This document shows positions 23,530 to 47,498 of a stretch of DNA of 64,000 bases, in pieces; the stretch's first letter is position 1; each line of letters begins with the position of its first letter. The DNA is from Gammaproteobacteria bacterium (GTDB lineage Bacteria; Pseudomonadota; Gammaproteobacteria; Tenderiales; Tenderiaceae). The translations under genes were made by a program, and so were the position numbers. Location of the stretch: NCBI GenBank assembly GCA_021731365.1, contig JAKFXL010000018.1:940-64939 (forward strand). Reading direction: 5' to 3'. The notes under the pieces are model-generated. The model did no database searches and was not told the origin of the DNA. It saw nothing but the letters and a program-made list of their open reading frames with translations.

Positions 23530-26500
23530 CTACTGCCAATTGGCGGTAATCACCGGGGTCAGTGCCGCGTCATATTCAGGTGACAACGACGTCTGCCCAG
23601 CAGCAGGCGGGGCAAATGAAGCCATCGCACTCACCAGATTCTCTACCCGGGTATCCAGTAATGTTTTGCCATCAGCGGTCGTAAACTCCTCAATTCGATA
23701 AGCATTACCAGAATACCAATTACTGATGGTGCTTCTATCACTCGTCCCAATAATACTGACTTCTAAATCAGAACCCATCCGGCGGAACCAAAGCTGATTA
23801 ATATCAACGCCGCCCCCAACTGATAACCGATCGCTGTTACCAAGAGTAGTATCGTAATCGTTAATGACATCAGCACTCGAACCACGTCCAAACAGGTAGG
23901 TGTCGTTGCCAGTGCCACCGTTGAGGGTGTCGTTGTCGGCACCACCGTTGAGGATGTCATTGCCTGCCCCGCCGTTGAGGGTGTCCATGCCTGCGCCGCC
24001 CAGTAGGGTATCGTTGCCGGCATTGCCGTTGAGGCTGTCGTTACCAATACCACCATCGATCTGGTCGGCCAGCGCACCCCCATAGAGATAGTCGTTACCG
24101 TCGAGGCCGAAGATGCGGTTGGTACCATCGTTGTAGCCGCTGATCGAGTCACCGTTCACAGTGCCGTTGGTGATGACGCGGGCCTTGATGGCGGCTTCGT
24201 CCCAGGTGACGCCGTCGCTAAACTTGAACTGTTCAATCTTGTAACCGGGGTAGCCGGAGTTGAAGTATTCATTGACGGTCAGTTGGTCTGCCGTACCGTA
24301 TTTGATGACGAGGTGGTTGCCACTGCGTTCCAGCGCCGTCAGGGCGGTGGAGGCGACGTTGCTGAACTGGACGACGTCGCTGTTGCCGGCGGTGGTGTCG
24401 TAGTCGGTGATGGTGTCGACGCCCGACCCAAGGGCAAGCAGGTAGGTGTCGTTGCCTACGTCACCGTTGAGGGTGTCGTTGTCGGCACCGCCATTGAGGA
24501 TGTCATTGCCTGCCCCGCCATTGAGGATGTCGGTACCAGCACCGCCCAACAGGGTGTCGTTGCCGGCATTGCCGTTGAGGCTGTCGTTACCGTTGCCACC
24601 TTCGATCCAGTCAGCCAGCGCGCCACCGTAGAGATAGTCGTTACCGTCGAGGCCGAAGATGCGGTTGGTACCATCGTTGTAACCACTGATCGAGTCATTG
24701 CCTACGGTGCCGTTGGTGATGACGCGGGCCTTGATGGCGGCTTCGTCCCAGGTGACGCCGTCGCTAAACTTGAACTGTTCAATCTTGTAACCGGGGTAGC
24801 CGGAGTTGAAGTATTCATTGACAGTCAGTTGGTCTGCCGTACCGTATTTGATGACGAGGTGGTTGCCACTGCGTTCCAGCGCCGTCAGGGCGGTGGAGGC
24901 GACGTTGCTGAACTGGACGACGTCGCTGTTGCCGGTGGTGGTGTCGTAGTCGGTGATGGTGTCGACGCCCGACCCAAGGGCAAGCAGGTAGGTGTCGTTG
25001 CCTACGTCACCGTTGAGGGTGTCGTTGCCTGACCCGCCATCAAGAATGTCGTCGCCATTATCACCATTAAGATTGTCGTTACCATCGCCGCCAAACAGGG
25101 CATCCATACCCCCGCCACCATAAAGGGTGTCATTACCCGCCTGACCATCAATAAGATCATTGCCGTCACCAGCACTAAACACATTGCCAGAGGCATTACC
25201 CACAAACGCATCATCACCACTTGTTCCAGAAGTAGCCACTGCTGAAAGTGAATTAATCCCAGTGGCGACAAAAGCATTACGAACATCCTGTTCCGTCCCC
25301 CACCGTTGCTTCAACGAACGTAATTGCTCCGTACCATCCCATCCCATCTGGTTAAACCTCTCACCATAGATTCGATTCAGATCAAGGAACAGCGCCGCGC
25401 CTTCTTGAGTATTTGCGGCCATGGCCTCTGATACGCTTGCATTCAATCCATCAAACCCAACAGTAACGCCAGTGGCTGATATGTTCAGGTCAACCAAATC
25501 AAGATATTGCGACAGGCGTAGCGAAGGCATCAGGTTATTAGTGGCATCGTCAACCAGTCTGTCCCATAGATTTTCAAAATACGAGACGCCATTTGGCATG
25601 GGTGGAATGGTCACTCGAATGTAATCGTCATAGAGCAGCACACCATTGCGTTGTTCAGCTATTAATTGCGAAAGCGGCACCACAACTTCAACCGGCACTA
25701 ACCTCACCCCCTCTTCATAAACCGGCAAGCCAAGACGTGGGACATAGTGTGCGTCATTGTAGACCTGCCCCCAATCCAGAAAGGTGTGCCCCGTAAATGC
25801 CTCATAGGCATAAAGCTTTTCAAGTCCGCCCACCATGCGTTCACGCATGGCATCGAATTTACTGAGATCATCGGCCAACAATGTGGCCCGGAATGCGTTA
25901 CGGTCCACTTCGCTGGCTTTGATGCCCACATCCATCCAGCCACGCTCCTGGTCATCCAAAGGTCCACTCAGAATAAGACCATAGCCTGCGGCCAAAGCCT
26001 CTCTGCCAGCACTGAGGTATTCGGAACCATCGCCCCACTCACGCATTAATTGCTCAACAGAGGATTCAAACTCTGCCCGTGTTGGGGCATTTTTAGCCTG
26101 ATTAACCAAGGCGACCAAATCCGGATTGAGTGTTGCCGCCTCACGCAAATCTCGCACCCAACCGCTGCCATTAATATCCGGCAGCGCCATAGCTGCCTCG
26201 CCCACAATAACTGGGACGTACTCACGAATAGTGTCGTTTTGCGCAAACAGAAAACTGCCCGCCTGGCCACTACTACCATCGGTACGGGTAAAGGTGCTCT
26301 CTAGCACCATCACGGAGTCACCATAAACGGTACCGGATACACTGCTGTTGAGCTTTATGCTAGCAATGCCACTTGCCGCCAATGTCTGTAGTTCGTTTGC
26401 CTGACTAATACCGTCTTGATTCAGGTCGCGCCAAACGCGCACTTCTGAATAAAAATCATCCTGGGCATCAAAATTAAAATCAGGGTGACTGTTAAGTTGA

Positions 26501-27342
26501 GCCAACGCATCAAAACCATTACCTGCCTTTCGCCCATTAGACAACAACATCTCATCGCCAAAAATCTCAGCGCCTGAATCGATAATGCCGTTGCCATTAC
26601 GATCCCACACCAAAATGCCATCATCAGCGCCGGCCCAAGCGGTGGCTGTTTTTATGGTATCGCCGTTGGTGTCGAACATGACACCACTACTGAGCGGGGT
26701 GATCTCGATGCCATCGCCGTCCAGATCGAGGATCAATGGATCGCGGTAGGGAATGAGGCGGGTAATGGTGACCATGGGGTCAGGGGCGTTGATGATGGCG
26801 TCAGAGATGGCAGACCCACTTTGGGAGTCATTACTTGGCGGGCTATCGTTCCATGGCTTGCTTGGGTCAGTCGGATTTGCCCATCCTCCATCTGGAGGAT
26901 AAATCCTGTTCCCGTCTATGTCATAGTATTTATTTGTTGAAATATTAGTGCCTTCAGGCACTAGCTGCGATGGTCCTTGCGAAAATTCCTTCCCATCAGG
27001 GGAAACAGTAATGGTGGGTTGCCATATCATGCCAGGAGGTGGAGTTGTCTGATTTGCGGGAGCAAATCCAGGCACCCCATCGGCTTCAGCCGCCGCTTGT
27101 ATTCGCTGATTTGCTTCACGAATTTTTTCGCCCGTTGTTCTTAAGTCAGTTGCCCATGTGTCAACAATATCCCTTACTACATAGCCAACAGCGGGTGGCA
27201 TAAGGCGACTAGCCGCATCGAATATAGCATTCACGTACTCAACGGCCTGAAGTGGGTCACTTCTATTTTCAATGGCATCTCCCGCGTTAATTAAATCATG
27301 GATTATTTGATTGGTTTTATTTGCTGTCCCTAGTAATGACAT
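23530..27342 (-). CDS. large RTX-family calcium-binding protein, probable type I secretion substrate (1270 aa)
   Basis: Many GGxGxDxL/I nonapeptides (GGAGNDILNGGADNDTLNG...). The C-terminal region (..DVINDYDTTLGNSDRLSVGGGVDINQLWFRRMGSDLEVSI..SNWY..RIEEFTTADGKTL..) matches a T1SS C-terminal target domain. The N-terminal half has EF-hand-like loops (DLNQDGISQANE). It is adjacent to hlyD. Confidence 0.85.
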   Translation of the reverse strand: MSLLGTANKTNQIIHDLINAGDAIENRSDPLQAVEYVNAIFDAASRLMPPAVGYVVRDIVDTWATDLRTTGEKIREANQRIQAAAEADGVPGFAPANQTTPPPGMIWQPTITVSPDGKEFSQGPSQLVPEGTNISTNKYYDIDGNRIYPPDGGWANPTDPSKPWNDSPPSNDSQSGSAISDAIINAPDPMVTITRLIPYRDPLILDLDGDGIEITPLSSGVMFDTNGDTIKTATAWAGADDGILVWDRNGNGIIDSGAEIFGDEMLLSNGRKAGNGFDALAQLNSHPDFNFDAQDDFYSEVRVWRDLNQDGISQANELQTLAASGIASIKLNSSVSGTVYGDSVMVLESTFTRTDGSSGQAGSFLFAQNDTIREYVPVIVGEAAMALPDINGSGWVRDLREAATLNPDLVALVNQAKNAPTRAEFESSVEQLMREWGDGSEYLSAGREALAAGYGLILSGPLDDQERGWMDVGIKASEVDRNAFRATLLADDLSKFDAMRERMVGGLEKLYAYEAFTGHTFLDWGQVYNDAHYVPRLGLPVYEEGVRLVPVEVVVPLSQLIAEQRNGVLLYDDYIRVTIPPMPNGVSYFENLWDRLVDDATNNLMPSLRLSQYLDLVDLNISATGVTVGFDGLNASVSEAMAANTQEGAALFLDLNRIYGERFNQMGWDGTEQLRSLKQRWGTEQDVRNAFVATGINSLSAVATSGTSGDDAFVGNASGNVFSAGDGNDLIDGQAGNDTLYGGGGMDALFGGDGNDNLNGDNGDDILDGGSGNDTLNGDVGNDTYLLALGSGVDTITDYDTTTGNSDVVQFSNVASTALTALERSGNHLVIKYGTADQLTVNEYFNSGYPGYKIEQFKFSDGVTWDEAAIKARVITNGTVGNDSISGYNDGTNRIFGLDGNDYLYGGALADWIEGGNGNDSLNGNAGNDTLLGGAGTDILNGGAGNDILNGGADNDTLNGDVGNDTYLLALGSGVDTITDYDTTAGNSDVVQFSNVASTALTALERSGNHLVIKYGTADQLTVNEYFNSGYPGYKIEQFKFSDGVTWDEAAIKARVITNGTVNGDSISGYNDGTNRIFGLDGNDYLYGGALADQIDGGIGNDSLNGNAGNDTLLGGAGMDTLNGGAGNDILNGGADNDTLNGGTGNDTYLFGRGSSADVINDYDTTLGNSDRLSVGGGVDINQLWFRRMGSDLEVSIIGTSDRSTISNWYSGNAYRIEEFTTADGKTLLDTRVENLVSAMASFAPPAAGQTSLSPEYDAALTPVITANWQ
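23885..25026. repeat. tandem direct repeat, about 2.1 copies of a 546-bp unit (about 97-99% identity), inside the RTX gene
   Basis: 24241-24480 is nearly identical to 24787-25026 (2 mismatches in 240 nt), and 23885-24240 resembles 24431-24786. The unit encodes a 182-aa module (..DVGNDTYLLALGSGVDTITDYDTT.GNSDVVQFSNVASTALTALERSGNHLVIKYGTADQLTVNEYF..IEQFKFSDGVTWD.. plus RTX nonapeptides). Confidence 0.9.
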
Positions 27343-27410
27343 GGCATATCCTTTTTGGTTATTAAATAATTAATCTATGCAACATAAAAAATTTAATCCG
27401 CGAATGACTA

Positions 27411-27683
27411 TCATGGAACAGTCGGAGGATTAACCCAGTTTTCAGGAACTTTTATTATCAGCCTTTCAATAGAGCTCTGTTTACGCCTAACACAAGTAAA
27501 TATTTTTGATGTTATTTTAAGTTTTTCATTGTTGCTTAAATTGCTTTTATCACTGATCTTTTCTCTATCAATAGGACTCGCACACTTCAACGTTAAATAA
27601 CCCAATCTAACCACCACAATATAATCAAACCCGAAATATCCCGTTATGAGTAGCAATACGCCAATAATTAGTTTTTTATTCAT
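27411..27683 (-). CDS. small AT-rich membrane-anchored hypothetical protein (about 90 aa)
   Basis: ATG at 27683 (MNKKLIIGVLLLITGYFGFDYIVVV...), one N-terminal TM segment. Its codon composition is clearly AT-rich relative to its neighbours. It lies between the RTX gene and hlyD. Confidence 0.45.
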   Translation of the reverse strand: MNKKLIIGVLLLITGYFGFDYIVVVRLGYLTLKCASPIDREKISDKSNLSNNEKLKITSKIFTCVRRKQSSIERLIIKVPENWVNPPTVP

Positions 27684-27841
27684 GCCGACAATAACTCGTG
27701 CACACAAATAATCATAATAAATTTTCGTGGAATTCCATAATGTCCGCTCCCATAAAGATGAGCAGTAAAATTCACGCACGAAGCTGTTTTGAGATATCTC
27801 ATCAATTTATTCAAACTAACTTTATCTCTATTCAAACTCAT

Positions 27842-29185
27842 TTAACGTTCCCTCCCACTCTCATCCGCATACTGCATCAACGGGCTCAGCACATACTCAA
27901 TCAACTTTCTCTTACCTGTTTTAACCTCTACCGTCACTGACATACCAGGACTAAGATTAATCATCTTATCCTCTACACGAATGGTGTTCTGTTTTAGCAA
28001 AACTCTGGCAGTGTAGATCAACCCCAGTTTCTCATCGGCCACGGCGTCATTGGATACGTTGATCAGTTCTGCGTCAATGGCGCCGTATTTGGTGTAAGGA
28101 AAGGCATCCACCTTCACTTCTGCTATTTGTCCTTCACGCACAAAGCCGATGTCTCTGTTGACGATGATGGCTTCGACTTCAATGCCTTCGTCTTGGGGCA
28201 CAATAACCATCAGTTGTTGCGCCGGTGTGACGACGCCGCCGATGGTGTGCACCGCAAGTTGTTGCACGATGCCATCGACCGGGGCGGTGAGGCGCAGCAG
28301 TTGGTTGCGCTGGTCGGCTTTGATTGATTCCTGGTTTAATCCTTGGCCACGACGTTTGGCATCGGTGAGTTCGGCCAGGGCATTGTTGAGGGCGTTGGCC
28401 TCTTCTACTTTTCGTTGTTCTTTGAGTTGGGCGAGATTGGCAATGAGCTCCTGGCGGCGCTGTTTTTGGATGGCGAGGTCTTGGGTCTGTTCGATGCGTT
28501 GTTGTTCGAGTTCGAGATAGGTGTGGCGTGGGGCGAGCTGTTTGTCGGCGAGTGTTTTGAGTGATTCGGCGCGTTCGGTGATGATCGGCAGTGTGGCTGC
28601 GAGTTTTTTGATCTGCTCTTCGGTGCCGATGAGTTCGGCTTCACGACGCAGCTTTTCGTTATCCAGACTGCTTAGCGTGGCTTGATGCTGTTGCCACTGG
28701 CTGGCGAGCAGTTGCTTTTGCGGTTCGAGCACATCGATGCTGGTGGTGTTTGGCCAGTGGGCGATGGGGGCGGTGTGGCTTTGCATGGCGATGATGAGGG
28801 CAGTGGCGCGGGCGAGTTCTGCCTGGGCGGTGCTGTATTCGTTGCCGAGCCGGGTGGCATCGGCCTGGGTGCCGGTGGTGTCGAGGTCGATCAGTGGGTC
28901 ACCCTTTTTTACACTCTGTCCCTCGCGCACATGGATGACACTGACGCTGCCGATCTCCAGTGGTTGAATAATTTTGGTGCGGTCGCTGGGGATCACTTTT
29001 CCTTGGGCGGTGGCGACGATGTCGACCTTGCCGAAACAGGCCCAGAGGATGGCGATGGTAAACAGAATCACGATGCTCCAGGTGATGGCGCGACCGATGG
29101 GCGATGGTGGGGTCTCCTGGATCTCCAGTGCGGCGGGCAGGAATTGGAGTTCATGTTTGTTGCGTTCGATGGTTAGGTTTTGCAT
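27842..29185 (-). CDS. hlyD: type I secretion periplasmic adaptor (HlyD family)
   Basis: 447 aa: N-terminal TM (ITWSIVILFTIAILWACF), long coiled coil, and a C-terminal region (..APVDGIVQQLAVHTIGGVVTPAQQLMVIVPQD..LSPGMSVTVEVKTGKRKLIEYVLSPL) that tracks E. coli HlyD closely. Confidence 0.9.
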   Translation of the reverse strand: MQNLTIERNKHELQFLPAALEIQETPPSPIGRAITWSIVILFTIAILWACFGKVDIVATAQGKVIPSDRTKIIQPLEIGSVSVIHVREGQSVKKGDPLIDLDTTGTQADATRLGNEYSTAQAELARATALIIAMQSHTAPIAHWPNTTSIDVLEPQKQLLASQWQQHQATLSSLDNEKLRREAELIGTEEQIKKLAATLPIITERAESLKTLADKQLAPRHTYLELEQQRIEQTQDLAIQKQRRQELIANLAQLKEQRKVEEANALNNALAELTDAKRRGQGLNQESIKADQRNQLLRLTAPVDGIVQQLAVHTIGGVVTPAQQLMVIVPQDEGIEVEAIIVNRDIGFVREGQIAEVKVDAFPYTKYGAIDAELINVSNDAVADEKLGLIYTARVLLKQNTIRVEDKMINLSPGMSVTVEVKTGKRKLIEYVLSPLMQYADESGRER

Positions 29186-29187
29186 GG

Positions 29188-29760
29188 TTAGTTCACCACT
29201 GCCATGCCGTCGCGGGCATCGCCGCGCTGGTACTGATAGAGCTTGGCGTAGTGGCCATGCAGGTTGATAAGTTGGGCGTGGGTGCCCTCTTCGACAATCT
29301 GGCCATGATCTATCACGATGATTCGATCGGCATTGCGCACGGCGCTAAGGCGGTGGGCGATGATGAAGACGGTGCGGTCTTTACAGATGCGCTGCATGTT
29401 GTCTTGAATGATGCGTTCTGATTCGTAGTCGAGGGCGCTGGTGGCTTCATCAAAGATGAGGATGCGGGGGTTGCTGATAAGCGCCCTGGCGATGGCGATG
29501 CGTTGGCGCTGACCACCGGAGAGGTTGCTGCCGTGTTCACCGACCAGTGAGTCGTAACCTTCTGAGAGTTCAAGAATGAATTCATGGGCGCCTGCAAGTT
29601 TGGCGGCCTGGATGACACGCTCCATCGGCAGGCCGGGATCACTCAGGGCGATATTGGCACGCACGCTGCGGTTGAAGAGCACGTTCTCTTGCAGTACGAC
29701 GCCGACCTGCCTTCTTAACCAGGTGGGGTCGATCATGATTCTGCCACTTTCAGGGACCTA
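29188..29760 (-). pseudogene. hlyB: C-terminal remnant of a HlyB-type T1SS ABC exporter (part of the NBD only)
   Basis: ..[32 protein letters not shown]...[34 protein letters not shown].. equals the last roughly 185 residues of HlyB (signature, Walker B, H-loop). It is preceded in frame by a stop at 29758-29760. No Walker A or TMD lies upstream. Confidence 0.85.
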
Positions 29761-29822
29761 GAGAGATCGCACTAATTTGATACAGATATTCATATTTAAA
29801 GTGCACCAAGCTGACACCGGTC

Positions 29823-30323
29823 TTAATCTCTGTAGAATTTTATTTCTAAAATAACAACATCGTCAGAAACTCTATACGAAAAATAAAACTCTGAATACTC
29901 TTCTCCAGCCAGGTTGTGTCTATTCTTATCAGAAGAGATAGCTATTACATTTTTATTTAGCTCTTTTTTTACAACTTTAAGCTCTTCGCCATCTAAAGCC
30001 AGGTTCGCCAACTTTAAGAACTCTTTATTGACATTACTACTATCTAATTCCATATATGGCCCAAGAAATAGAAGCGCATGGGTTCCATAGTGATCACATG
30101 ACCAATGTTTTATCGAAAACATAGCACCATCATTTGTTATGCCCTTAACCTCTTTGGCACTATCCGCCCAAACAAACTTAGAAATCGCACTGTTTTTCTC
30201 ATACCTATCCTTTGTAAAGCTGCCCTCATCAAACACACAGCTTGACTGCTGTGCACATGCCGTGCTTGACAGAACCAGAACCACCAATCCAAAAAAAACA
30301 CATCTTTCACGAAAAATTCTCAT
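29823..30323 (-). CDS. hypothetical secreted protein (166 aa), AT-rich, carried on the insert within hlyB
   Basis: N-terminal signal peptide (MRIFRERCVFFGLVVLVLSSTACAQQ). By eye the region is about 35-40% GC against a background of about 55%. No recognisable domain. Confidence 0.55.
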   Translation of the reverse strand: MRIFRERCVFFGLVVLVLSSTACAQQSSCVFDEGSFTKDRYEKNSAISKFVWADSAKEVKGITNDGAMFSIKHWSCDHYGTHALLFLGPYMELDSSNVNKEFLKLANLALDGEELKVVKKELNKNVIAISSDKNRHNLAGEEYSEFYFSYRVSDDVVILEIKFYRD

Positions 30324-30338
30324 GTGACTTTTCTCATT

Positions 30339-30836
30339 CTAGGGCTGAGGTATCTCTACGTGATAGGCTGGATCCGCAGGTGGAGTTAAAAACTTTGACA
30401 CCCTTGCATCACCATTTACGGCGGATTCGAATTTCTTTCTCAATGCTAAATTTATACTACTCGGCGCAATATCTACAACGTTAATCTTCTTGGGATCACC
30501 AACGTGTAGGGAAACATTTCCTGGACCAATATTAGTTATCTTCACACTCATGCCATTGATAATGTCAGCCACGGATTTTCCTTGTGATTTGAGCAAGGAA
30601 TACTCGTCTATCACTTTGTCTCCATAGGAACTATATAACCTTTTCTGATGAAGAACACCATGGCGCTCGATATTTTCATACATGATTCGAGCTTGATCAT
30701 ATACGGTACGCGCGGTACTGGTCACTGTAATCAGCGGAACGCCAGCCTTTTTCATAATGTCTTCCAGCACTTTTTTACTATAGGCTGATACTTTCGACGA
30801 ATCTCTAGCTGGATCCAGATATTTTATCAATGGCAT
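30339..30836 (-). CDS. hypothetical protein (about 165 aa), AT-rich, carried on the insert within hlyB
   Basis: Likely start is MPLIKYLDPARDSS.. (the track ORF starts 12 codons earlier). It is cytoplasmic-type and contains ..ITVTSTARTVYDQA.. and ..SLHVGDPKKINVVDIAP... These faintly resemble LAS/M15-type peptidase motifs, but that is not established. Confidence 0.5.
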   Translation of the reverse strand: MPLIKYLDPARDSSKVSAYSKKVLEDIMKKAGVPLITVTSTARTVYDQARIMYENIERHGVLHQKRLYSSYGDKVIDEYSLLKSQGKSVADIINGMSVKITNIGPGNVSLHVGDPKKINVVDIAPSSINLALRKKFESAVNGDARVSKFLTPPADPAYHVEIPQP

Positions 30837-30889
30837 GTCAAATTCCCCTTTATTGAATCTCGCTGCAACCAAGCTTACGCCTGATCAAA

Positions 30890-31424
30890 GTAGAAAAACC
30901 CTCATACATCAATACCTCGACCACACTATCGATAACAAAAAAGCCCGCAGCGCTTCACCAAAGAGTTTGTGGTGTTTATATCGCAGGGATAAACCTCTTG
31001 AAATCGAATTTTCGATCACCATTCAACAGACTGGCGCGTTTGGTGATCAGGATCAATTCACCTGACCACTGTTTTTCAAACTCTTCCCGTGGGAGAACCT
31101 TCGGGCGCTGTTCGAGTGGATCTTGAATCAGGACAGAGGCACCTCTTTAAGACCACCAACAATAAAATAGTGGCCATCAGTGTGGCGGGCAATAGCGGGG
31201 AGTTGAATGCGTTCGAGACGAGAGATATCCGATTTAATCTGCCGGGCCTTGAGGCCAAGCAGTTTGGTGGCACGGAGGATTTCGGTCGGGCCGAAGTGCT
31301 GTTCGGTCTGGCCAAACTGGTGGCGTAGCTGATCGGCCTCTGCGGCAACACCGTGAAAGCGGGCAAGGATCACCAGGCAGGTTAGGCCTGTGTCAGGCCC
31401 AACAACATCCTTGTTGTTATCCAT
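30890..31424 (-). pseudogene. hlyB: N-terminal remnant of a HlyB-type T1SS ABC exporter (C39-like domain plus start of TMD), with frameshifts and stops
   Basis: The 98-aa ORF 31128..31424 (MDNNKDVVGPDTGLTCLVILARFHGVAAEADQLRHQFG..LRATKLLGLKARQIKSDISRLERIQLPAIARHTDGHYFIVGGL) matches the HlyB N-terminal C39-like domain. Homology continues in other frames with stops (..RPKVLPREEFEKQWSGELILITKRASLLNGDRKFDFKRFIPAI*, ..KHHKLFGEALRAFLLSIVW.., ..VLMYEGFSTL..), roughly up to HlyB residue 190. Confidence 0.8.
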
Positions 31425-31669
31425 TCATCCAACCCTACAGATTTTTATTTTGTCGTCACCATCAAGCTTGTGGCACACGCGACCGCAACTGGCGACAGTT
31501 TTTTGCCTATGTTAGCCGTAGACCTGCTATCTGGGCAAATAAAATATAGGGGAGAGGCAAACGTCGGGGGGGCAGGTAATGGTTTTACGTCTAATGGGGG
31601 GGCTGAATAGCCGCACACCCAAAGCCCGCCATGAGCAGCGGGCGGATGTAGCGCGGCCCTAAAGGTTGG

Positions 31670-32494
<825 letters not shown>

Positions 32495-33649
32495 TTATGA
32501 CTTTGGCTGTGTCATGTCTTCAAAGAATTTTTTTACGCCGGCAAACCAGTTGCTGGAGCGTGGGCTATGTTTACCATCCCCCTCCTCCATGGCGCGCTGA
32601 AACTCTTCCAGCAGCTCTTTTTGTTTGCGCCCCAGGTTGATGGGGGTCTCCACCTCCACCTTGCAGATCAGGTCGCCAATGCCACCGCCGTGCACTGACT
32701 TAACACCCTTGCCACGTAAGCGGAACGATTTTCCTGTCTGTGTCTCGGCGGGGATTTTAAGTTTGACACGACCATCCAGGGTCGGCACATCCAGCTCCCC
32801 CCCGAGTACCGCATTGGCAAAGCTGATCGGTACAACGCAGTGAAGATTGCTCTCCTCACGGGTAAAGATGGCGTGTGGTCGAACCTTAATCTGGACATAA
32901 AGATCGCCCGAGGGACCGCCGCTTTCACCGGCCTCACCTTCTCCCGCCAGACGAATGCGATCACCGCTATCCACGCCGGCTGGAATTTTGACCGACAAGG
33001 TTTTTTGCTCATTAACACGTCCTTGCCCACGACAATCAGGGCATGGATCTTTGATGATGTGACCACTGCCCTGACAATGGGGGCACGCTTGCTGTAGCGA
33101 GAAAAACCCCTGCTGGATACGAACCTGACCACGACCACCACACGTAGTGCAGCTGACCGGGCTGGTCCCTTTTTTGGCGCCGGAGCCTTCACACGGGTTG
33201 CACTTAACCATGGTGGGTATGCGAATTTTGACCGTAGCACCACGCACTGCCTCTTCAAGATCAAGGTCGAGGTTGTAACGCAGATCAGCGCCACGATAGA
33301 CACGCTGGCCTCCGCCACCGCCACGTGCACCACCAAAAATGTCGCCAAACACATCACCAAAGACGTCGCCGAAATTACCGCCACCGGCTGCGCCACCAAA
33401 ACCGCCACCACCGCCCGCCGACTGATCTACACCGGCATGGCCAAACTGGTCGTAAGCGGCGCGCTTCTGGGCGTTGGAGAGTATCTCGTAGGCCTCTTTG
33501 GCCTCTTTGAATTTCTCTTCAGACTCTTTGTTATCGGGGTTACGGTCGGGGTGGTGTTTCTGCGCGGCACGGCGATAGGCCTTTTTGATATCCGCTTCGC
33601 TGGCGTTTTTTGCCACACCTAATATTTCGTAAAAATCTCGTTTGGCCAT
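32495..33649 (-). CDS. dnaJ: chaperone DnaJ
   Basis: J-domain [19 protein letters not shown]-rich linker, four CxxCxG zinc-finger repeats. Confidence 0.97.
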
Positions 33650-33771
33650 GGGTCCAAGCTTTTAGTTGTTAAATTCTTAATTTGCACAAACAACAACAGG
33701 CGCACCGTGAGGTTGCGCCTGCTGTTCACCTCACATCAGAGACCAGTATCTAACGGCTGGCCCTGTCATGA

Positions 33772-35703
33772 TCAGCGTTTGTCATCCTTCACTTCCTCGA
33801 ACTCAGCGTCAACCACATCATCCTTGGAGTTATCACCTTGGGCATCAGCCTGAGAGGAGCCGTCAGGGCCACCCTCTGCAGCAGCTTTTTGTGCATAGAC
33901 ACGTTCGGCCAGTTTGCCAGAGAGTGTGGCCAGGGCTTCAGTCTTGGCTTCGATCTCACTCTTGTCTTCGCCCTTCATGGCTGTTTTCAGCTCTTCAACA
34001 GCCGCTTCGATGGCACTCTTCTCTTCCGCCTCAACCTGATCACCCAGCTCCTTCAAAGAGGCGGTAGTGGAATGAATCATGTTATCCGCCGCGTTACGGG
34101 CCCCTACCATCTCGTGGAACTTACGATCCTCGTCTTTGTGGGCTTCGGCATCACTCACCATCTTGGCAACCTCTTCATCACTCAGGCCAGAAGAGGCCTT
34201 GATGACAATGGAGGTGTGTTTGCCGGTGGCCTTGTCCTTGGCAGAGACATTCAGGATACCGTTGGCGTCGATGTCAAACGTCACTTCGATCTGTGGCACA
34301 CCACGGCGGGCCGGGGTGATGTCACCCAGGTCAAAACGACCCAGTGATTTATTGGCAGCGGCTATTTCGCGCTCACCCTGCAACACATGTACGGTCACGG
34401 CACTCTGGTTATCTTCAGCGGTGGAGAACACCTGGTTGGCCTTGGTCGGAATAGTGGTGTTCTTTTCGATCAGTTTGGTCATCACACCACCCATGGTCTC
34501 GATACCCAGCGACAGCGGCGTAACGTCCAGCAGCAGTACATCCTTCACCTCACCACCCAATACACCGCCCTGAATCGCGGCACCTACGGCCACAGCCTCA
34601 TCAGGGTTGACATCTTTACGTGGCTCTTTGCCAAAGATCTCTTGCACCTTGGCTTGCACCATGGGCATGCGGGTCTGACCACCGACCATCAATACATCAT
34701 CCACATCAGATGCGGAGAGACCGGCATCCTTCAGCGCCATACGGCACGGCTCAACGGTGCGATTAACCAGCTCTTCCACCAGCGACTCCAGCTTGGCGCG
34801 GGTCACCTTTATATTAAGGTGCTTCGGACCTTTGGCATCGGCAGTGATGTAGGGCAGATTAACGTCAGTCTGCTGTGAAGAGGAGAGTTCGATCTTGGCC
34901 TTCTCGGCCGCCTCTTTCAGACGCTGTAGCGCCAATGGATCATTGTGTAGATCAATGCCACTCTCTTTCTTGAACTCATCGGCAAGATAGTCGATCAAAC
35001 GCAAGTCAAAATCTTCACCACCGAGGAAGGTATCACCGTTGGTGGAGAGCACTTCTATCTGCTGCTCACCTTCAACTTCAGCGATTTCGATGATGGAGAT
35101 ATCAAACGTACCACCACCCAAGTCATAGACCGCCACCTTGCGATCGCCACGACGTTTGTCCATGCCGTAGGCCAGGGCAGCAGCTGTGGGTTCGTTGATA
35201 ATACGTTTTACTTCCAGACCGGCGATTCGCCCGGCATCCTTGGTGGCCTGACGCTGTGAGTCGTTGAAATAGGCTGGCACGGTGATGACCGCTTCTGTGA
35301 CTGGCTCGCCCAGGTAATCCTCAGCGGTCTTTTTCATCTTCATCAAGACGCGGGCAGAGATTTCTGGCGGCGCCATCTTCTTGCCATTGACATCGATCCA
35401 GGCATCGCCATTTTCGGCCTGGGCGATGGTATAGGGGACCATCTTGATGTCCTTCTGTACTTCGGCATCCTTGAAGCGGCGACCGATCAGACGTTTGACC
35501 GCAAACAGGGTGTTTTTTGGATTAGTGACCGCCTGACGTTTGGCCGACTGGCCAACCAGCACCTCACCATCATCGGCATAGGCGACGATAGATGGGGTTG
35601 TACGATCCCCTTCACTGTTTTCAATGACGCGGGGCTTGCCGTCTTCCATCACTGCGACGCAAGAGTTGGTGGTTCCCAAGTCAATACCGATAATTCTGCC
35701 CAT
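33772..35703 (-). CDS. dnaK: chaperone DnaK (Hsp70)
   Basis: [18 protein letters not shown].., ..DLGGGTFD.. and further motifs, full-length Hsp70. Confidence 0.98.
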
Positions 35704-35795
35704 TACTCCAATCTCCGTAGTTAAGTCTTATGTTCATGTTTTGTGCAGCATGGTGGCTGCCGCTTATCCCTTTAATGGGGACGACAGCGTATTTA

Positions 35796-36422
35796 TCAAG
35801 CCTGAAAGTCTATCGTGCCGGTCAAATCGCCCTCAGACTTCAGGTTGGCACCCGATTTGGCGCTGGCAACCACCACCATGGCGGGGCGGACCAGACGATC
35901 ATTGAGCTGATACCCTTTCTGGTAAACCGCAACCACAGTATTAGGGATCGCATCGGGCAGATCCTGCATCGCCATCGCCTGATGGCGCTCGGCGTTGAAC
36001 TTCTCACCCATCGGGTTAAGCTCCACCACACCAAACTTTGCCACGGCGGCGGCCAACATCTTACCGGTCAACTCCAGCCCTTCACGCACTTTTGCCAAAT
36101 CGGCCCCTTCAGCACTGGCCGCGGCCTCGCCCATCTCCAGGCTGTCTTTCACCGGCAGCAGCTCGTTTACAAACCGCTCCAGGGCGTACTTATGGGCGTT
36201 TTCAACATCACGTTCAGCGCGGCGACGGCTGTTATCAGACTCCGCCTGTACCCTTAGCACCTGATTCCAATGCTCTTCAGCCTTGGCCTGTGCCTCTGTC
36301 AACATCTGCTGAAGCTCTTCATAGGTGGGCGCAGGCAGCTCATTCTGAATCTCCGGGCTGGCCTCTACCACCACCTCTCCATCAATGGCTTCGCTGTTTT
36401 CACTTTTTTTATCCGTCATCAC
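35796..36422 (-). CDS. grpE: nucleotide exchange factor GrpE
   Basis: 208 aa, coiled-coil N-terminus and a GrpE C-terminal region (..GMEL..GQEFDPNLHQAM-like ..NPMGEKFNAERHQAMAMQ..). It lies upstream of dnaK. Confidence 0.9.
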   Translation of the reverse strand: MMTDKKSENSEAIDGEVVVEASPEIQNELPAPTYEELQQMLTEAQAKAEEHWNQVLRVQAESDNSRRRAERDVENAHKYALERFVNELLPVKDSLEMGEAAASAEGADLAKVREGLELTGKMLAAAVAKFGVVELNPMGEKFNAERHQAMAMQDLPDAIPNTVVAVYQKGYQLNDRLVRPAMVVVASAKSGANLKSEGDLTGTIDFQA

Positions 36423-36719
36423 TCAATCCTGGGTTGTCAATGGGATATACAACAGTAGCCGTAGATGGGGATGATCAATACAGATTCAAGGCGTGGTCTG
36501 ATATTTTTGCCGGGCTGGCGGTAGCAGGAAGCACCTGCCAAACGCATTCACAAGATATTGCAAATATTCACCAAGATCATTGGCCATGATGGTTTACAAC
36601 TCCTGTATGATGCAAAAAACTGTCACTGCGCTATCATCAGCAACCCAAACGTCGGTCTAAGATAGCCGTCCCCAACATCAAAATGTCAAAATAGGGCTTC
36701 ATCCCAACAGGTTATACAG

Positions 36720-37589
36720 ATGACAACTAAATTCCGCCGTATCGGCATTGTCAGCAAATTCAGTGACACCTCCATCGGCACCACCATCGAAATACTCGCC
36801 AACTTCTTAAGCGCACGTAATCATCAGGTTGTGCTGGAGGAGAGCGCTGCCAAGACCCTGTCCAATACAACGTTGGAGACAACCTCCATCGATCAGATCG
36901 GCAAACACTGTGATCTGGTGATTGTTGTTGGTGGTGATGGCACCCTGCTGCACACTGCCCGTTCACTGGCAGACCACAACATCCCACTGGTTGGCATCAA
37001 TCTTGGTCGCCTGGGCTTTCTAACCGATATTTCGCCTGACGACATGCTCTCCCGCCTGGATGAGATACTCAGTGGTGTCTACCACGAAGAGAAGCGCTTT
37101 CTGCTACAGGCGCTGGTAATCCGCGATGGTGAAACTGTCCAAACAGGCAGCGCGCTCAACGACGTGGTGATTCATAAATGGAATTCGGTGCGGATGATCG
37201 AGTTCGAAACCCACGTCGATGGCCTGCTGGTCAACAGCCAGCGTTCCGACGGTCTGATCGTCTCCACCCCCACCGGCTCCACCGCCTACGCACTCTCGGG
37301 CGGCGGCCCCATCATGCACCCCGCCCTGGATGCCATCGTGCTGGTGCCCATCTGCCCCCACACCCTGAGCAACCGGCCGCTGGTTATCGCCGCCAGCAGT
37401 GTGATCGAGCTGCGGGTGACCCGGACTGACATCGCCCACGTACGTATCACCCTGGATGGCCAGACTATTCTCTCCCTGGCCGAGGGTGATCACGTTCGAA
37501 TCGTTAAAAAAGAGCCCCCTGTGCGGCTCTTCCACCCCAAAGGCCACGACCATTTCCAGATCCTGCGCGCCAAACTGCGCTGGGGTTAG
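36720..37589 (+). CDS. nadK: NAD(+) kinase
   Basis: ..DLVIVVGGDGTLLHTAR.. GGDG motif and ..STPTGSTAYALSGGGPI.. Confidence 0.93.
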   Translation: MTTKFRRIGIVSKFSDTSIGTTIEILANFLSARNHQVVLEESAAKTLSNTTLETTSIDQIGKHCDLVIVVGGDGTLLHTARSLADHNIPLVGINLGRLGFLTDISPDDMLSRLDEILSGVYHEEKRFLLQALVIRDGETVQTGSALNDVVIHKWNSVRMIEFETHVDGLLVNSQRSDGLIVSTPTGSTAYALSGGGPIMHPALDAIVLVPICPHTLSNRPLVIAASSVIELRVTRTDIAHVRITLDGQTILSLAEGDHVRIVKKEPPVRLFHPKGHDHFQILRAKLRWG

Positions 37590-39808: not shown

Positions 39809-40129
39809 ATGCAAAAGCTTCTCATCTCCACCCTACTATGTGCAAGCCTTCTTTCCGCGTGCAGCGTCCATAAGCTTGAAATCCAGCAAGGCAACGTTAT
39901 CGCCCCGGAGATGGTGGAAAAACTCAAACCGGGCATGACCACCCGGCAGGTGAAGTTTGTCATGGGATCACCCCAGCTTACAGACCCGTTCCACAAGGAT
40001 CGCTGGGACTACCTCTACATCCTCAGAAGTGACGGCAAAATCGCCGAAAAGAGACATCTGATCCTCTTTTTTGAAGGTGACGTGCTCAGCCGCATCGACG
40101 ACCAGACCGCCACCACACCGCCTCTCTAA
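39809..40129 (+). CDS. bamE: outer-membrane protein assembly factor BamE (SmpA/OmlA lipoprotein)
   Basis: MQKLLISTLLCASLLSAC lipobox, then ..KLKPGMTTRQVKFVMGSP.. BamE fold motif. Confidence 0.88.
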   Translation: MQKLLISTLLCASLLSACSVHKLEIQQGNVIAPEMVEKLKPGMTTRQVKFVMGSPQLTDPFHKDRWDYLYILRSDGKIAEKRHLILFFEGDVLSRIDDQTATTPPL

Positions 40130-40446
40130 ACGTCACCGCCCCCTTTTTTCATCTTCTTCCCCTCTGCCGCACGCTGACGACGCACCTCTTTAGGGTCAGC
40201 AATCAGCTTGCGGTAGATCTCAATACGATCCCCCTCACGCAGACCACTGGCAGTTAACTTGGTCAACTTGCCAAAAATACCCACTTTGCTGTCGGCCAGA
40301 TCGATCTCCGGAAACTTATCCAGAATCCCGGACGCCTTAACAGCATCCTCCACCGTTCCATCCTTAGCCACATTAGCCGTCAAAATAAGCTGCGTATCCG
40401 GCCGTGCATACGCCACCTCAACCTTAATCATTTCACCGTTTTCCAT
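40126..40446 (-). CDS. RnfH-family ubiquitin-like protein (YfjF/RatB-like)
   Basis: ..MIKVEVAYARPDTQ..V..GTVEDAVKASGIL..IDL...VGIFGK...REGDRIEIYRKLIADPKE.RRQRA, characteristic of RnfH/YfjF. The start is ambiguous between M17 and M22 of the track ORF. It overlaps the ratA 3' end. Confidence 0.8.
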   Translation of the reverse strand: MENGEMIKVEVAYARPDTQLILTANVAKDGTVEDAVKASGILDKFPEIDLADSKVGIFGKLTKLTASGLREGDRIEIYRKLIADPKEVRRQRAAEGKKMKKGGGDV

Positions 40447-40870
40447 AGACCTCCACCGCCCGCTGACAAAAAGCATCCACCAAAGAGTTGGCAATCTGGC
40501 TAAATACCGGCCCCACCGTCAAACCCAGAAACTTGTTCGAAAACTCAAACTCCATCATCAACGACACCTTGCACGACACCTCGTCCAACACATCAAAGCG
40601 CCAAAACCCCTCCAGATGGTGGAACGGCCCCTCTTCCAGACGCATCTCAATCATCTTATTGATCTGCATCCGGTTACAGGTTGTAAACGTTTTATTAATA
40701 CCGCCCTTACTCAACTCCAGGCAACCCCGCACCTCATCATCACCCCGACTCAATACCCGGCTGCTCTTGCACCAAGGCAAAAAAGCTTGATACGAATCGA
40801 TATCATCCACCAGCGCATACATCTCCGCCACAGAATAAGGCACCAAAGCACTACGATTAATCGCTGTCAT
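40433..40870 (-). CDS. ratA: SRPBCC-family ribosome-association protein RatA/YfjG-like
   Basis: Start at MTAINRSALVPYSVAEMYALVDDIDSYQAFLPWC.., which tracks E. coli RatA (..SRTALVPYSAEQMY..). Confidence 0.85.
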   Translation of the reverse strand: MTAINRSALVPYSVAEMYALVDDIDSYQAFLPWCKSSRVLSRGDDEVRGCLELSKGGINKTFTTCNRMQINKMIEMRLEEGPFHHLEGFWRFDVLDEVSCKVSLMMEFEFSNKFLGLTVGPVFSQIANSLVDAFCQRAVEVYGKR

Positions 40871-41031
40871 ACCACTCCAAAATCCCAAATAACACTGCGA
40901 GCACAGCCGCCTGCGTTAAAAACCGCTGTAAACGATAGCCGAAGGCAGCGCCCCCCCGCAACCCATGCTAAAAATAACCAGCAACAATTTTACACCGGAA
41001 ACTCACACATCGATTAGCACTACCATTATAA

Positions 41032-41523
41032 TTGGCACCCATGAGCAAAAACGCACAAACAAAGACAGGCCAGGGCGGCGGCACCATTACCCTCAACAAA
41101 AAAGCCAAACACGAGTTTTTTATTGAGGACAAATTTGAAGCGGGCATCGTACTCGAAGGCTGGGAGGTCAAAAGCCTGCGCGCCGGAAAGGTGCAGATGC
41201 GCGACAGCTACGTCCTGATCAAAAATGGCGAGGCGTTCCTGATCGGAACCCTGATCTCGCCACTGAACACCGCCTCCACCCATATCCACCCCAGCGCCGA
41301 ACGGACCCGCAAACTGCTGCTCAACCGCCACGAACTGAGCAAACTGATCGGGGCTGTCGAGCGCCAGGGCTATACCGTCATCCCCATTGCCATGTACTGG
41401 AGCAAAAACCGGGTCAAACTCGAAATTGGCCTTGCCAAGGGCAAACAGGAACACGACAAACGCAATACCGAACGTGACCGCGAATGGGCACGCGACAAAC
41501 AGCGCATCATGAAACGTGGCTAA
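41032..41523 (+). CDS. smpB: SsrA-binding protein SmpB
   Basis: ..TITLNKKAKHEFFIEDKFEAGIVLEGWEVKSLRAGK.., a near-canonical SmpB. Confidence 0.95.
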   Translation: MAPMSKNAQTKTGQGGGTITLNKKAKHEFFIEDKFEAGIVLEGWEVKSLRAGKVQMRDSYVLIKNGEAFLIGTLISPLNTASTHIHPSAERTRKLLLNRHELSKLIGAVERQGYTVIPIAMYWSKNRVKLEIGLAKGKQEHDKRNTERDREWARDKQRIMKRG

Positions 41524-41578
41524 ATCATCGCTGGCCGGGAACCTCCCGGTCAGATACAATGATCCACTTGAACCAAAG

Positions 41579-41937
41579 GGGGCGATCTGGCTTCGACGTG
41601 GATTGCGAAACCCAAGGTGCATGCCGAGGTGTAGGTCCCCTCGTAAAACAATCTACAAACTTATAGTTGCCAACGAAGACAACTACGCACTCGCTGCTTA
41701 ATACCCAGTAGGGTGCCCTCGGCCCAAGTCTGTGCTTGTGCACTTGGTAACCGGGGTCGACTCACACAAGCTCGCGATGAAGTTAGTCTGGCACCGATTC
41801 GTTAAATTCTTACAGACTCGCTGTTTGTCTTCCCTGCCAATCGGGTAGCATGCAGTTAAATTAATAGATTGGATAAGCATGTAGAGCTGAAGGCAGAGGA
41901 TTTGCGGACGCGGGTTCGATTCCCGCCGCCTCCACCA
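41579..41937 (+). ncRNA. ssrA: transfer-messenger RNA (tmRNA, SsrA)
   Basis: Starts GGGGCGATCTGGCTTCGACGTGGATTGCGAAACCCAAGGTGCATGCCGAGG, which parallels E. coli ssrA. The tag reading frame is GCC AAC GAA GAC AAC TAC GCA CTC GCT GCT TAA (ANEDNYALAA). The 3' end is tRNA-like: GGACGCGGGTTCGATTCCCGCCGCCTCCACCA. Confidence 0.95.
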
Positions 41938-41980
41938 CTTAACAGGTTTGCTGATTACCACGGCAAACCACTAGAAATTG

Positions 41981-42012
41981 GCCTGTTACGAAAGTTTCAG
42001 GCTATTTTTTTG
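41981..42012 (+). terminator. putative rho-independent terminator after ssrA
   Basis: GCCTGTTACGAAAGTTTCAGGC hairpin (5-bp GC stem) followed by TATTTTTTTGTCTTT. Confidence 0.5.
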
Positions 42013-45405: not shown

Positions 45406-45409
45406 CCGC

Positions 45410-47445: not shown

Positions 47446-47498
47446 GAAATTTTCAACACACACTGATCAAGCCTGTTTATATACAGTGCTTAACAACG

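What the first reader, a model, noticed from the sequence alone, without database searches (positions are those of the whole stretch)
29761..30890. Foreign two-gene insert inside hlyB: a signal-peptide protein plus a cytoplasmic protein with weak peptidase-like motifs (possible toxin/immunity or selfish module)
The insert is by eye roughly 35-40% GC against about 55% around it. It encodes a 166-aa protein with a clear signal peptide (MRIFRERCVFFGLVVLVLSSTACAQQ) and, upstream on the same strand, a roughly 165-aa protein. The second protein contains ..ITVTSTARTVYDQA.. and ..SLHVGDPKKINVVDIAP.. These are faintly reminiscent of LAS/M15-type (H-x-G-D ... V-D-I) zinc-peptidase signatures, but I cannot establish that. 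A small two-gene AT-rich module that has precisely replaced the core of a secretion gene suggests a mobile effector/immunity pair or an addiction cassette. An inert deletion scar seems less likely.
Basis: inference. Interest (0 to 1): 0.55.

Follow-up and report, generated by a model that had tools for sequence, protein, structure and literature searches.

The report
Cell-wall peptidase and immunity gene pair
A 1.2-kb piece of foreign DNA has replaced the middle of a toxin-export gene; it carries a probable cell-wall-cutting zinc peptidase from a large unnamed family and a periplasmic partner that is most likely its immunity protein, i.e. a probable bacterial weapon/antidote pair.

Summary
About 1,184 bp (window ~29762-30945, GC 0.39 against 0.55 in the flanks) is the lowest-GC stretch of that length in the window. 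It replaces roughly residues 145-515 of a type I secretion hlyB gene. It carries two minus-strand genes that are probably translationally coupled. A (30339-30836) is 165 aa with no signal peptide. B (29823-30323) is 166 aa with a signal peptide.

A belongs to a large family with no Pfam, NCBIfam, PHROG or PDB match. Its invariant residues (R, SxH, D, DxxxH) correspond one-to-one to those of T5-type M15/LAS endolysins, and profile-profile comparison supports remote homology. In other phyla the A domain is fused to peptidoglycan-binding and peptidoglycan-lytic domains and to toxin-delivery domains (eCIS core, WXG100). In a gut phage it sits beside a holin.

B occurs directly downstream of A in all 26 proteobacterial loci that had sequence downstream of A, always with a signal peptide. 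It diverges much faster than A. Both genes are under purifying selection.

The best reading is a peptidoglycan-peptidase effector with a periplasmic immunity protein, acquired horizontally. The delivery route is unknown. No transposon or integron signature was found. I class it as a new variant of a known kind, of moderate interest.

The parts
29762..30945 (-). Foreign low-GC segment carrying the two-gene cassette, inserted in place of hlyB codons ~145-515.
   Evidence: GC is 0.394, the minimum for this length in the window. The junctions were placed by HlyB profile coordinates and by alignment to L013. The same insertion at the same site is present in L013, L103 and L001-L003.
30339..30836 (-). 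Gene A: 165 aa, no signal peptide, putative LAS/M15-like zinc peptidoglycan peptidase. Invariant residues are R43, Q48, S109, H111, D122, D155 and H159; E161 is conserved in at least 90% of sequences.
   Evidence: family and invariant residues; remote homology to M15_4; fusion partners; dN/dS 0.10. A GGGGA ribosome-binding site lies 7 nt upstream of the ATG (read directly from the sequence).
29823..30323 (-). Gene B: 166 aa with a Sec signal peptide (predicted cleavage ...ACA|QQ), putative periplasmic immunity/inhibitor protein. Invariant residues are C29, W74, C76, H78, F146 and Y147.
   Evidence: family; always directly downstream of A, gap -4 to +22 nt, signal peptide in all 16 distinct pairs; AF2 pLDDT 87; dN/dS 0.06.
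30946..31424 (-). hlyB 5' remnant (C39-like domain, HlyB positions ~1-145). In this window it is frameshifted by 10-bp and 11-bp deletions, and the open ORF is 31128-31424.
29188..29736 (-). hlyB 3' remnant: a 182-aa ORF covering the C-terminal part of the ATPase domain (HlyB positions 524-693). It lacks Walker A and the whole membrane domain.
   Evidence: dN/dS against L013 is 0.03, which is unexplained.
27842..29185 (-). hlyD membrane-fusion gene of the same type I secretion operon, intact.
   Evidence: dN/dS 0.10.
23530..27342 (-). RTX repeat protein (1270 aa), the presumed cargo of the disabled type I secretion system.

Best explanation
The insert is a horizontally acquired two-gene cassette that encodes a peptidoglycan-hydrolase effector (A) and its cognate periplasmic immunity protein (B).

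A is a leaderless 18-kDa enzyme. Its core is a divergent LAS/M15-type zinc peptidase. By analogy with T5 endolysin, H111, D122 and H159 are the proposed zinc ligands, D155 the catalytic acid/base, and R43/Q48/S109 the substrate-binding residues. The core is interrupted by a 46-residue helical insert. A would cut the peptide stems of murein.

B is exported by Sec. It probably carries a C29-C76 disulfide and would bind and block A in the periplasm. This would protect the producer and its kin from A arriving from outside. B's invariant W-x-C-x-H loop is a candidate active-site plug.

The cassette lies in the same orientation as the type I secretion operon (hlyB'-A-B-'hlyB-hlyD-RTX) and is probably transcribed from the operon's promoter. 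Its arrival deleted the membrane domain and Walker A region of hlyB and so disabled that exporter.

Shown: the insertion, the gene pair, their conservation and co-inheritance, the domain contexts, and the remote M15 homology. Inferred: the enzymatic activity, the immunity function, and any delivery route (T6SS Hcp-type cargo, eCIS or lysis-dependent release).
For: 1) A-B is a conserved module. B is directly downstream of A in all 26 gamma- and beta-proteobacterial loci that had sequence downstream of A. In the 16 distinct pairs the gap is -4 to +22 nt. Every B has a signal peptide followed by an invariant Cys. Pairwise identities of A and B correlate (r = 0.91), while B diverges much faster (mean identity 26% against 61%).

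2) Both genes are under purifying selection between the window and L013: dN/dS is 0.10 for A and 0.06 for B.

3) The invariant residues of A match one-to-one those of T5-type M15_4 endolysins. A has R43 / S109-x-H111 / D122 / D155-x3-H159; T5 has R42 / S64-x-H66 / D73 / D130-x2-H133. hhalign scores 30.5 (P 2.6e-4) against shuffles of 12.7 +/- 2.9. With the insert removed it scores 42 (P 9e-7, probability 91%) against shuffles of 11.9 +/- 2.5.

4) The A domain is found in 1,651 clusters at 50% identity. Among 95 multi-domain representatives it is fused to PG_binding_1 (9), PG_binding_3 (5), Phage_lysozyme (4), SLT (4), SH3_3 (4), Amidase_2/3, NlpC/P60, M23, CHAP and LysM. It is also fused to the delivery modules eCIS_core (5) and WXG100 (2).

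5) A phage homologue lies next to a holin, and there is a BFVD structural match with TM 0.82.

6) In L107/L022 the pair sits in an islet with a lysozyme fragment plus lipoprotein. In L107 there is also a Tlde1_dom gene (a type VI peptidoglycan-effector family) followed by a membrane protein.

7) The cassette is AT-rich relative to its hosts in several genomes and sits at unrelated chromosomal sites, as expected for horizontally moving effector/immunity islets.
Against: - No Pfam, NCBIfam or PHROG model matches A or B.
- Foldseek finds no PDB relative of the pLDDT-95 model of A, not even LAS enzymes. HMMER profile searches against PDB sequences are also empty.
- B's best PDB hits are Tsi3 immunity proteins, but they are not significant (E 0.07, TM 0.26).
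- No T6SS, eCIS or holin gene lies in the 64-kb window or next to most of the pairs, so there is no known way out of the cell for A.
- In Acidobacteriota many stand-alone A genes have no B and sometimes no partner at all. This is compatible with a housekeeping cell-wall role.
- Removing the insert before running hhalign was guided by the first alignment, so that test is partly circular.
Confidence: 0.58

Rival explanations
1. A is a cell-wall remodelling or recycling enzyme of the host itself (an autolysin or muropeptide peptidase), and B is a periplasmic regulator or partner. On this reading the pair is not a weapon.
For: Stand-alone A genes without B are common in Acidobacteriota, and Thermoanaerobaculia loci share conserved neighbouring genes. 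Most proteobacterial pairs are solitary among housekeeping genes. Fusions to peptidoglycan-binding and peptidoglycan-lytic domains also fit autolysins.
Against: A has no export signal, whereas B is periplasmic. The pair is patchy: 142 of about 185,000 species representatives carry it. It is AT-rich and sits at different loci in each host. The A domain also occurs fused to eCIS_core and WXG100 toxin-delivery modules. B evolves as fast as immunity proteins typically do.
Confidence: 0.2
2. The pair is a remnant of a phage or tailocin lysis module, with A as an endolysin.
For: A is remotely related to T5-type endolysins. A phage homologue lies next to a holin. In L009 the pair is a few kb from a GH108 endolysin and a GTA-type holin.
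Against: There is no holin, spanin or other phage gene in or around the insert. B is not a holin or spanin: it is a soluble, signal-peptide protein. The two-gene unit is conserved on its own in 16 distinct loci and is under purifying selection.
Confidence: 0.1
3. The segment is anonymous horizontally acquired DNA or a decaying scar, with ORFs that no longer have a function.
For: A near-identical strain (L103) has a 2-bp deletion in A and a +1 T insertion in B. hlyB itself is a pseudogene here.
Against: dN/dS is 0.06-0.10 for the two genes. The ORFs are intact in the window, in L013 and in three Logan contigs. The families are large and conserved. The L103 indels lie in a TA repeat and a T-run and may be assembly errors.
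Confidence: 0.05
4. The pair is a classical toxin-antitoxin addiction module, or an integron or transposon cassette that targets hlyB.
For: It is a small two-gene AT-rich unit. An imperfect 14-19-nt direct repeat flanks it (29805-29818 and 30868-30881).
Against: B has a signal peptide, so it cannot neutralise a cytoplasmic toxin. No attC-like structure, terminal inverted repeats, target duplication or transposase is present. The flanking repeat is at chance level (my estimate is about 3 such matches expected in this stretch) and is absent from the other loci. No other locus has the pair inside a secretion gene.
Confidence: 0.04

Closest known systems
T5-type L-alanyl-D-glutamate endopeptidase endolysins (MEROPS M15C; Pfam Peptidase_M15_4; LAS/'Hedgehog-DD-peptidase' zinc enzymes)
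   Same: The invariant residues appear in the same order (Arg, S-x-H, Asp, Asp-x(2-3)-His-x-Glu). The secondary-structure order is the same, by my own reading of the model. The profile-profile match is significant against shuffles. Both have a peptidoglycan context.
   Different: A carries a 46-residue helical insert between the Arg helix and the SxH motif. The spacing from His to Asp is 11 residues instead of 7. No Pfam M15 model and no solved LAS structure is recovered. A is paired with a dedicated periplasmic protein instead of a holin.
Type VI secretion peptidoglycan effector-immunity pairs (Tae1-4/Tai1-4, Tse3/Tsi3, Tlde1/Tldi1)
   Same: The effector is small (~18 kDa), leaderless and acts on the cell wall. 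A small signal-peptide protein is encoded immediately downstream. The downstream partner diverges faster than the effector. The pairs are solitary 'islets'. In L107 the pair lies close to a Tlde1-domain gene.
   Different: The catalytic family is different: a metallopeptidase rather than the NlpC/P60-type cysteine amidases, muramidases or YkuD-like enzymes. No hcp, vgrG, PAAR or T6SS core gene lies near any pair examined. The similarity of B to Tsi3 is not significant.
Polymorphic toxin systems and eCIS-associated toxins (C-terminal toxin domains on varied delivery modules)
   Same: The A domain is the C-terminal module of long proteins with eCIS_core or WXG100 N-terminal parts, and also occurs as a stand-alone gene.
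   Different: Most fusions are to peptidoglycan-binding or peptidoglycan-lytic domains rather than to classical trafficking domains. B-type partners were found only in Proteobacteria.
Periplasmic lysozyme inhibitors (Ivy, PliC/MliC)
   Same: They are small Sec-exported proteins in which a conserved loop blocks a cell-wall hydrolase. In Ivy that loop is disulfide-constrained and contains a His (from my own knowledge, not tested here).
   Different: No sequence or fold match was detected. B is genetically tied to its own enzyme.

Membership tests
LAS / M15 zinc peptidases (MEROPS clan MD) | His...Asp...His metal triad with a catalytic acidic residue 2-3 positions before the last His | tested here: met
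   H111, D122, D155 and H159 are invariant in 55 and in 95 diverse sequences. This is a sequence-level test only; the geometry was not checked.
LAS / M15 zinc peptidases (MEROPS clan MD) | Conserved Arg after the first core strand and the S-x-H motif of M15B/C | tested here: met
   TST(A)R43 and S109-x-H111 align with R42 and S64-x-H66 of T5-type enzymes.
LAS / M15 zinc peptidases (MEROPS clan MD) | Match to a curated M15 profile (Pfam VanY, Peptidase_M15_x) | tested here: not met
   No hit above threshold. One member hit VanY at E 0.024. Weak DUF5715 hits were found in 5 of 55 members, and in 11 of 36 after removing the insert.
LAS / M15 zinc peptidases (MEROPS clan MD) | Profile-profile similarity to a bona fide M15 family | tested here: met
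   hhalign against 10 T5-type endolysins gives P 2.6e-4 to 5.7e-4 with the full domain and P 9e-7 (probability 91%) with the insert removed. Shuffles reach a maximum score of 22-23, against 30.5 and 42 for the real alignments.
LAS / M15 zinc peptidases (MEROPS clan MD) | Hedgehog/DD-peptidase fold by structure comparison | tested here: not met
   Foldseek of the pLDDT-94.8 model against the PDB gives a best E of 0.45 and no LAS enzyme. The helical insert may hide the core. The order of secondary-structure elements is compatible with the fold.
LAS / M15 zinc peptidases (MEROPS clan MD) | Zinc-dependent cleavage of peptidoglycan peptides | not testable with these tools
   Requires biochemistry.
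T6SS effector-immunity pair | Leaderless effector with an adjacent periplasmic immunity gene | tested here: met
T6SS effector-immunity pair | Genetic link to hcp, vgrG, PAAR or T6SS core genes | tested here: not met
   None in the window or in the flanks of loci L004-L024, L043, L107 and L108. The only link is a neighbouring Tlde1_dom gene in L107.
T6SS effector-immunity pair | T6SS-dependent export and immunity-dependent protection | not testable with these tools
   Requires genetics.
Polymorphic toxin domain | The same domain at the C-terminus of proteins with different delivery or anchoring N-terminal regions | tested here: met
   Fusion partners include eCIS_core, WXG100, PG_binding, SLT, Amidase_2 and DUF4347.
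Phage endolysin cassette | Adjacent holin or spanin genes, or a prophage context | tested here: not met
   Absent from the window. Present only for the distant homologue in phage MT835567.
Type II toxin-antitoxin module | Both partners are cytoplasmic and the antitoxin binds the toxin in the cytoplasm | tested here: not met
   B carries a signal peptide in all 16 distinct pairs.
Integron cassette / IS / transposon | attC site, terminal inverted repeats, target-site duplication, or a recombinase | tested here: not met
HlyB-type T1SS ABC transporter (the host gene) | Contiguous C39-like domain, six-helix membrane domain, and a complete ATPase domain | tested here: not met
   Only profile positions ~1-145 (frameshifted) and 524-693 remain. 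The gene is a pseudogene.

The most novel reading that the evidence does not exclude
A and B define a previously undescribed and widespread peptidoglycan-targeting effector/immunity system. A would be a new branch of LAS-type metallopeptidases with a helical insert and no solved structural relative. It would have been recruited as a stand-alone gene, as a phage lysin, and as the warhead of eCIS and type VII (WXG100) toxins. B would be a new family of periplasmic metallopeptidase inhibitors that plugs the active site with its disulfide-held W-x-C-x-H loop.
Probability: 0.45. Interest if true: 0.6.

Novelty: new variant of a known kind. Interest (0 to 1): 0.45.

Why it matters
If confirmed, this would give a function to a family of more than 1,600 sequence clusters now labelled 'hypothetical'. 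It would add a metallopeptidase class, with its own inhibitor family, to the known cell-wall-targeting weapons of bacteria. It would also provide a new enzyme/inhibitor pair for structural and antibacterial-enzyme work. For the host, an uncultivated electroautotroph of the Ca. Tenderia group, it shows that its RTX type I secretion operon has lost its ABC transporter.

Tried and rejected
- Pfam, NCBIfam and PHROGs scans of A and B gave nothing significant.
- HMMER profile searches against PDB sequences, with and without the helical insert, gave nothing.
- Foldseek of A against the PDB gave nothing.
- Foldseek of B against the PDB ranked Tsi3 first, but the match is not significant, so I do not use it as evidence.
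- hhalign of B against A, of B against M15, and of B against the acidobacterial downstream protein all gave background scores.
- The search for target-site duplications, inverted repeats and attC sites found only a chance-level 14-nt direct repeat that other loci do not share.
- I tested whether the C39-like domain is part of the module, because L004 has a C39 gene after B. That protein is unrelated to the HlyB N-terminus and occurs only in that one lineage.
- I tested whether the insert is younger than its flanks from its lower dS. Divergence along the whole region is mosaic, so this is not conclusive.
- Literature searches for an M15/LAS type VI effector, or for this family, found nothing relevant; the 'M15' hits were lacZ-delta-M15 strain genotypes.
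- A double-glycine leader in A was considered and rejected by inspection. Residues 1-34 are part of the folded domain and are present in the fusion proteins.
Full report
**1. The observation**

The minus strand of window 29188-31424 reads as follows: hlyB 5' piece, gene A, gene B, hlyB 3' piece.

- The 3' ORF (29188-29736, 182 aa) matches the HlyB model TIGR01846 at positions 524-693.
- The 5' ORF (31128-31424, 98 aa) matches positions 1-79 and Pfam Peptidase_C39.
- GC falls to 0.34-0.44. Over 29762-30945 it is 0.394, against 0.557 and 0.552 in the flanks.
- A sliding window of that length reaches its minimum for the whole 64 kb at 29759, 3 SD below the mean.

**2. Junctions and host**

A MAG of Candidatus Tenderia sp. 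(L013) is collinear with the window from dnaK to hlyD. It carries the same insert at the same site.

- In L013 the hlyB 5' piece is an open 178-aa ORF covering HlyB positions 1-142.
- The window has 10-bp and 11-bp deletions in that piece. The remnant is therefore frameshifted, but it extends to about 30945-30968.
- On the other side, HlyB-like sequence resumes at about 29760 ([19 protein letters not shown], by translation).
- About 370 codons are gone: the whole membrane domain and the Walker A region. They are replaced by 1,184 bp.
- Three Logan contigs and a third assembly (L103) show the same arrangement.
- The operon (hlyB'-A-B-'hlyB-hlyD-small ORF-RTX) sits between dapB and carA in a housekeeping block.
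- No target duplication, terminal inverted repeat, attC-like site or recombinase is present. A 14-19-nt imperfect direct repeat flanking the two genes is at chance level, and other loci do not share it.

**3. Gene A**

*Family size and annotation*
- A has 119 relatives in the word-indexed search, nearly all about 165 aa and all unnamed.
- It has 1,651 relatives at E <= 0.001 among the 50%-identity cluster representatives.
- It is found in 142 species-representative genomes. These span Gamma- and Betaproteobacteria, Acidobacteriota, Chloroflexota, Actinomycetota, Alphaproteobacteria, Bacteroidota and others.
- No Pfam, NCBIfam or PHROG model matches it.

*Structure*
- The AlphaFold model is confident (pLDDT 94.8).
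- It has no Foldseek relative in the PDB.
- It has one good match among viral predicted structures (TM 0.82).

*Conserved residues and remote homology*
- Invariant positions in 55 and in 95 diverse sequences are R43, Q48, S109, H111, D122, D155 and H159. E161 is nearly invariant.
- I recalled the phage T5 endolysin sequence and confirmed it against the phage collection (100% identity). I then built an alignment of ten T5-type M15_4 endolysins.
- The invariant residues of those endolysins are R42, S64-x-H66, D73 and D130-x-x-H133. They appear in the same order as in A.
- hhalign aligns exactly these motifs. It scores 30.5 (P 2.6e-4) against 12.7 +/- 2.9 for column shuffles with a maximum of 22.9.
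- A 255-sequence profile gives P 5.7e-4.
- With the 46-residue helical segment (residues 59-104) removed, the score is 42 (P 9e-7, probability 91%). Shuffles give 11.9 +/- 2.5.
- After the same removal, 11 of 36 members weakly hit Pfam DUF5715.

I conclude that A is most likely a divergent LAS/M15-type zinc peptidase carrying an insert. This rests on sequence-profile evidence and is not confirmed by fold search.

**4. What the A domain is found with**

In non-proteobacterial genomes the domain is usually the C-terminal part of longer proteins. Ten such proteins, and then 95 cluster representatives, were scanned against Pfam.

| Partner domain | Members (of 95) |
|---|---|
| PG_binding_1 | 9 |
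| PG_binding_3 | 5 |
| eCIS_core | 5 |
| SH3_3 | 4 |
| Phage_lysozyme | 4 |
| SLT | 4 |
| Amidase_2 | 2 |
| WXG100 | 2 |
| VanY | 2 |
| Pesticin | 2 |
| Amidase_3, NlpC/P60, M23, CHAP, LysM | 1 each |

These partners are cell-wall binding, cell-wall lysis and toxin delivery. A distant homologue in a human-gut phage (MT835567) lies beside a holin and a tail fibre gene.

**5. Gene B**

- B has only a handful of direct relatives. A profile search finds 23.
- In the fetched loci a B homologue lies immediately downstream of A in all 26 gamma- and beta-proteobacterial loci that had sequence downstream of A, and nowhere else.
- In the 16 distinct pairs the gap between the genes is -4 to +22 nt.
- Every B starts with a signal peptide followed within a few residues by an invariant Cys.
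- Pairwise identities of A and B are correlated (r = 0.91).
- B is far more divergent than A (mean identity 26% against 61%).
- Invariant residues are C29, W74, C76, H78, F146 and Y147.
- The model (pLDDT 87) is an alpha+beta domain. Its best PDB hits are Tsi3 immunity proteins, but at E 0.07 and TM 0.26. I treat this as no evidence.
- One acidobacterial locus has a non-homologous 168-aa signal-peptide protein after A. Another has no partner.

**6. Selection and context**

Between the window and L013, dN/dS is 0.10 for A and 0.06 for B, so both are maintained by selection.

The pairs sit at unrelated chromosomal sites and are often poorer in GC than their surroundings. In L107 (and partly in L022) the pair lies between two other small units. 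One is a lysozyme fragment with a lipoprotein. The other, seen in L107 only, is a Tlde1-domain gene with a membrane protein. Tlde1 is a type VI peptidoglycan-effector family. This looks like an islet of cell-wall effector/immunity pairs.

No type VI, eCIS or holin gene lies in the window. Its other contents are the nuo genes, glmM, ftsH, carAB, dnaKJ, recN, a type I restriction system with AbiE, and a PP2C-kinase.

**7. Interpretation**

The best-supported reading (confidence about 0.58) is a peptidoglycan-peptidase effector with a periplasmic immunity protein. The pair was acquired horizontally and landed in hlyB, which it destroyed.

The steps from 'LAS-like domain in cell-wall contexts plus obligate periplasmic partner' to 'antibacterial effector and immunity' are inference by analogy with Tae/Tai-type pairs. 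The export route of A is unknown.

The rivals are:
- a host cell-wall enzyme with a regulator (0.2);
- a lysis-module remnant (0.1);
- functionless DNA (0.05);
- a toxin-antitoxin or mobile cassette (0.04).

**8. Unexplained**

- The 182-aa HlyB 3' fragment has dN/dS 0.03 although it cannot be a working transporter. Divergence along the region is mosaic, so recombination may be the cause.
- The near-identical strain L103 has small indels in both A and B. These could be real decay or assembly error.

**9. Verdict**

The selfish-element idea is not.

The thing is a new variant (an unnamed family) of a known kind of system. It is of moderate interest, mainly because the A domain is abundant, unannotated and without a solved structural relative.

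Noticed in passing
window 27343-27841: A second AT-rich patch (GC 0.30-0.36) lies between hlyD and the RTX gene. It holds a 122-aa ORF (27411-27779, minus strand) with an N-terminal hydrophobic segment and no family match. From here on the related Tenderia MAG L013 is unalignable, so the two genomes have different downstream (RTX cargo) regions.
   Followed up: partly
window 29188-29736: The truncated HlyB ATPase fragment (no Walker A, no membrane domain) has dN/dS 0.03 (39 synonymous and 5 non-synonymous changes) against L013, even though both genomes carry the disrupting insert.
   Followed up: partly
window 23530-27342: The 1270-aa RTX protein contains a nearly exact internal duplication of a block of about 190 residues (GNDTYLLALGSGVDTITDYDTT...KARVITNGTV).
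   Followed up: no
window ~40000-59000: There is a defence-type island. It holds a type I restriction-modification system (hsdR 42142-45405, hsdM 52671-54992) with an AbiEii gene (45410-46330) nested in it, plus a PP2C-Ser/Thr kinase fusion (56885-58594). A low-GC patch lies at 48.9-51.2 kb.
   Followed up: no
L107 7981-11753 (and L022 5090-5858): An islet of three small units lies in a Limnobacter-like metagenome contig (L107): a Phage_lysozyme fragment with a lipoprotein, then A with B, then a Tlde1-domain protein with a multi-pass membrane protein. The lysozyme-fragment/lipoprotein unit upstream of A-B is also present in the Limnobacter MAG L022.
   Followed up: partly
L004 10546-10956 (also L005-L007): A stand-alone 136-aa Peptidase_C39 protein is encoded directly after B in one lineage. 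It is unrelated in sequence to the HlyB C39-like domain that precedes A in the window.
   Followed up: yes
L103 4150-5450: A near-identical strain (GCA_947085515.1) has a 2-bp deletion in A inside the conserved ARTVYDQ motif and an extra T in a T-run in B's signal-peptide region. This could be real inactivation or an assembly error.
   Followed up: partly
L009 957-16489: In a gammaproteobacterial MAG the A-B pair lies between a region with a GH108 endolysin and a GTA-type holin (plus three unknown proteins) and a gene for a protein of more than 3,599 aa with no family match.
   Followed up: no
window 24000-36800 vs L013: Divergence between the two Tenderia genomes is strongly mosaic (0 to 22% per 150 nt, even within dnaK, dnaJ and dapB). 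This suggests frequent recombination.
   Followed up: no
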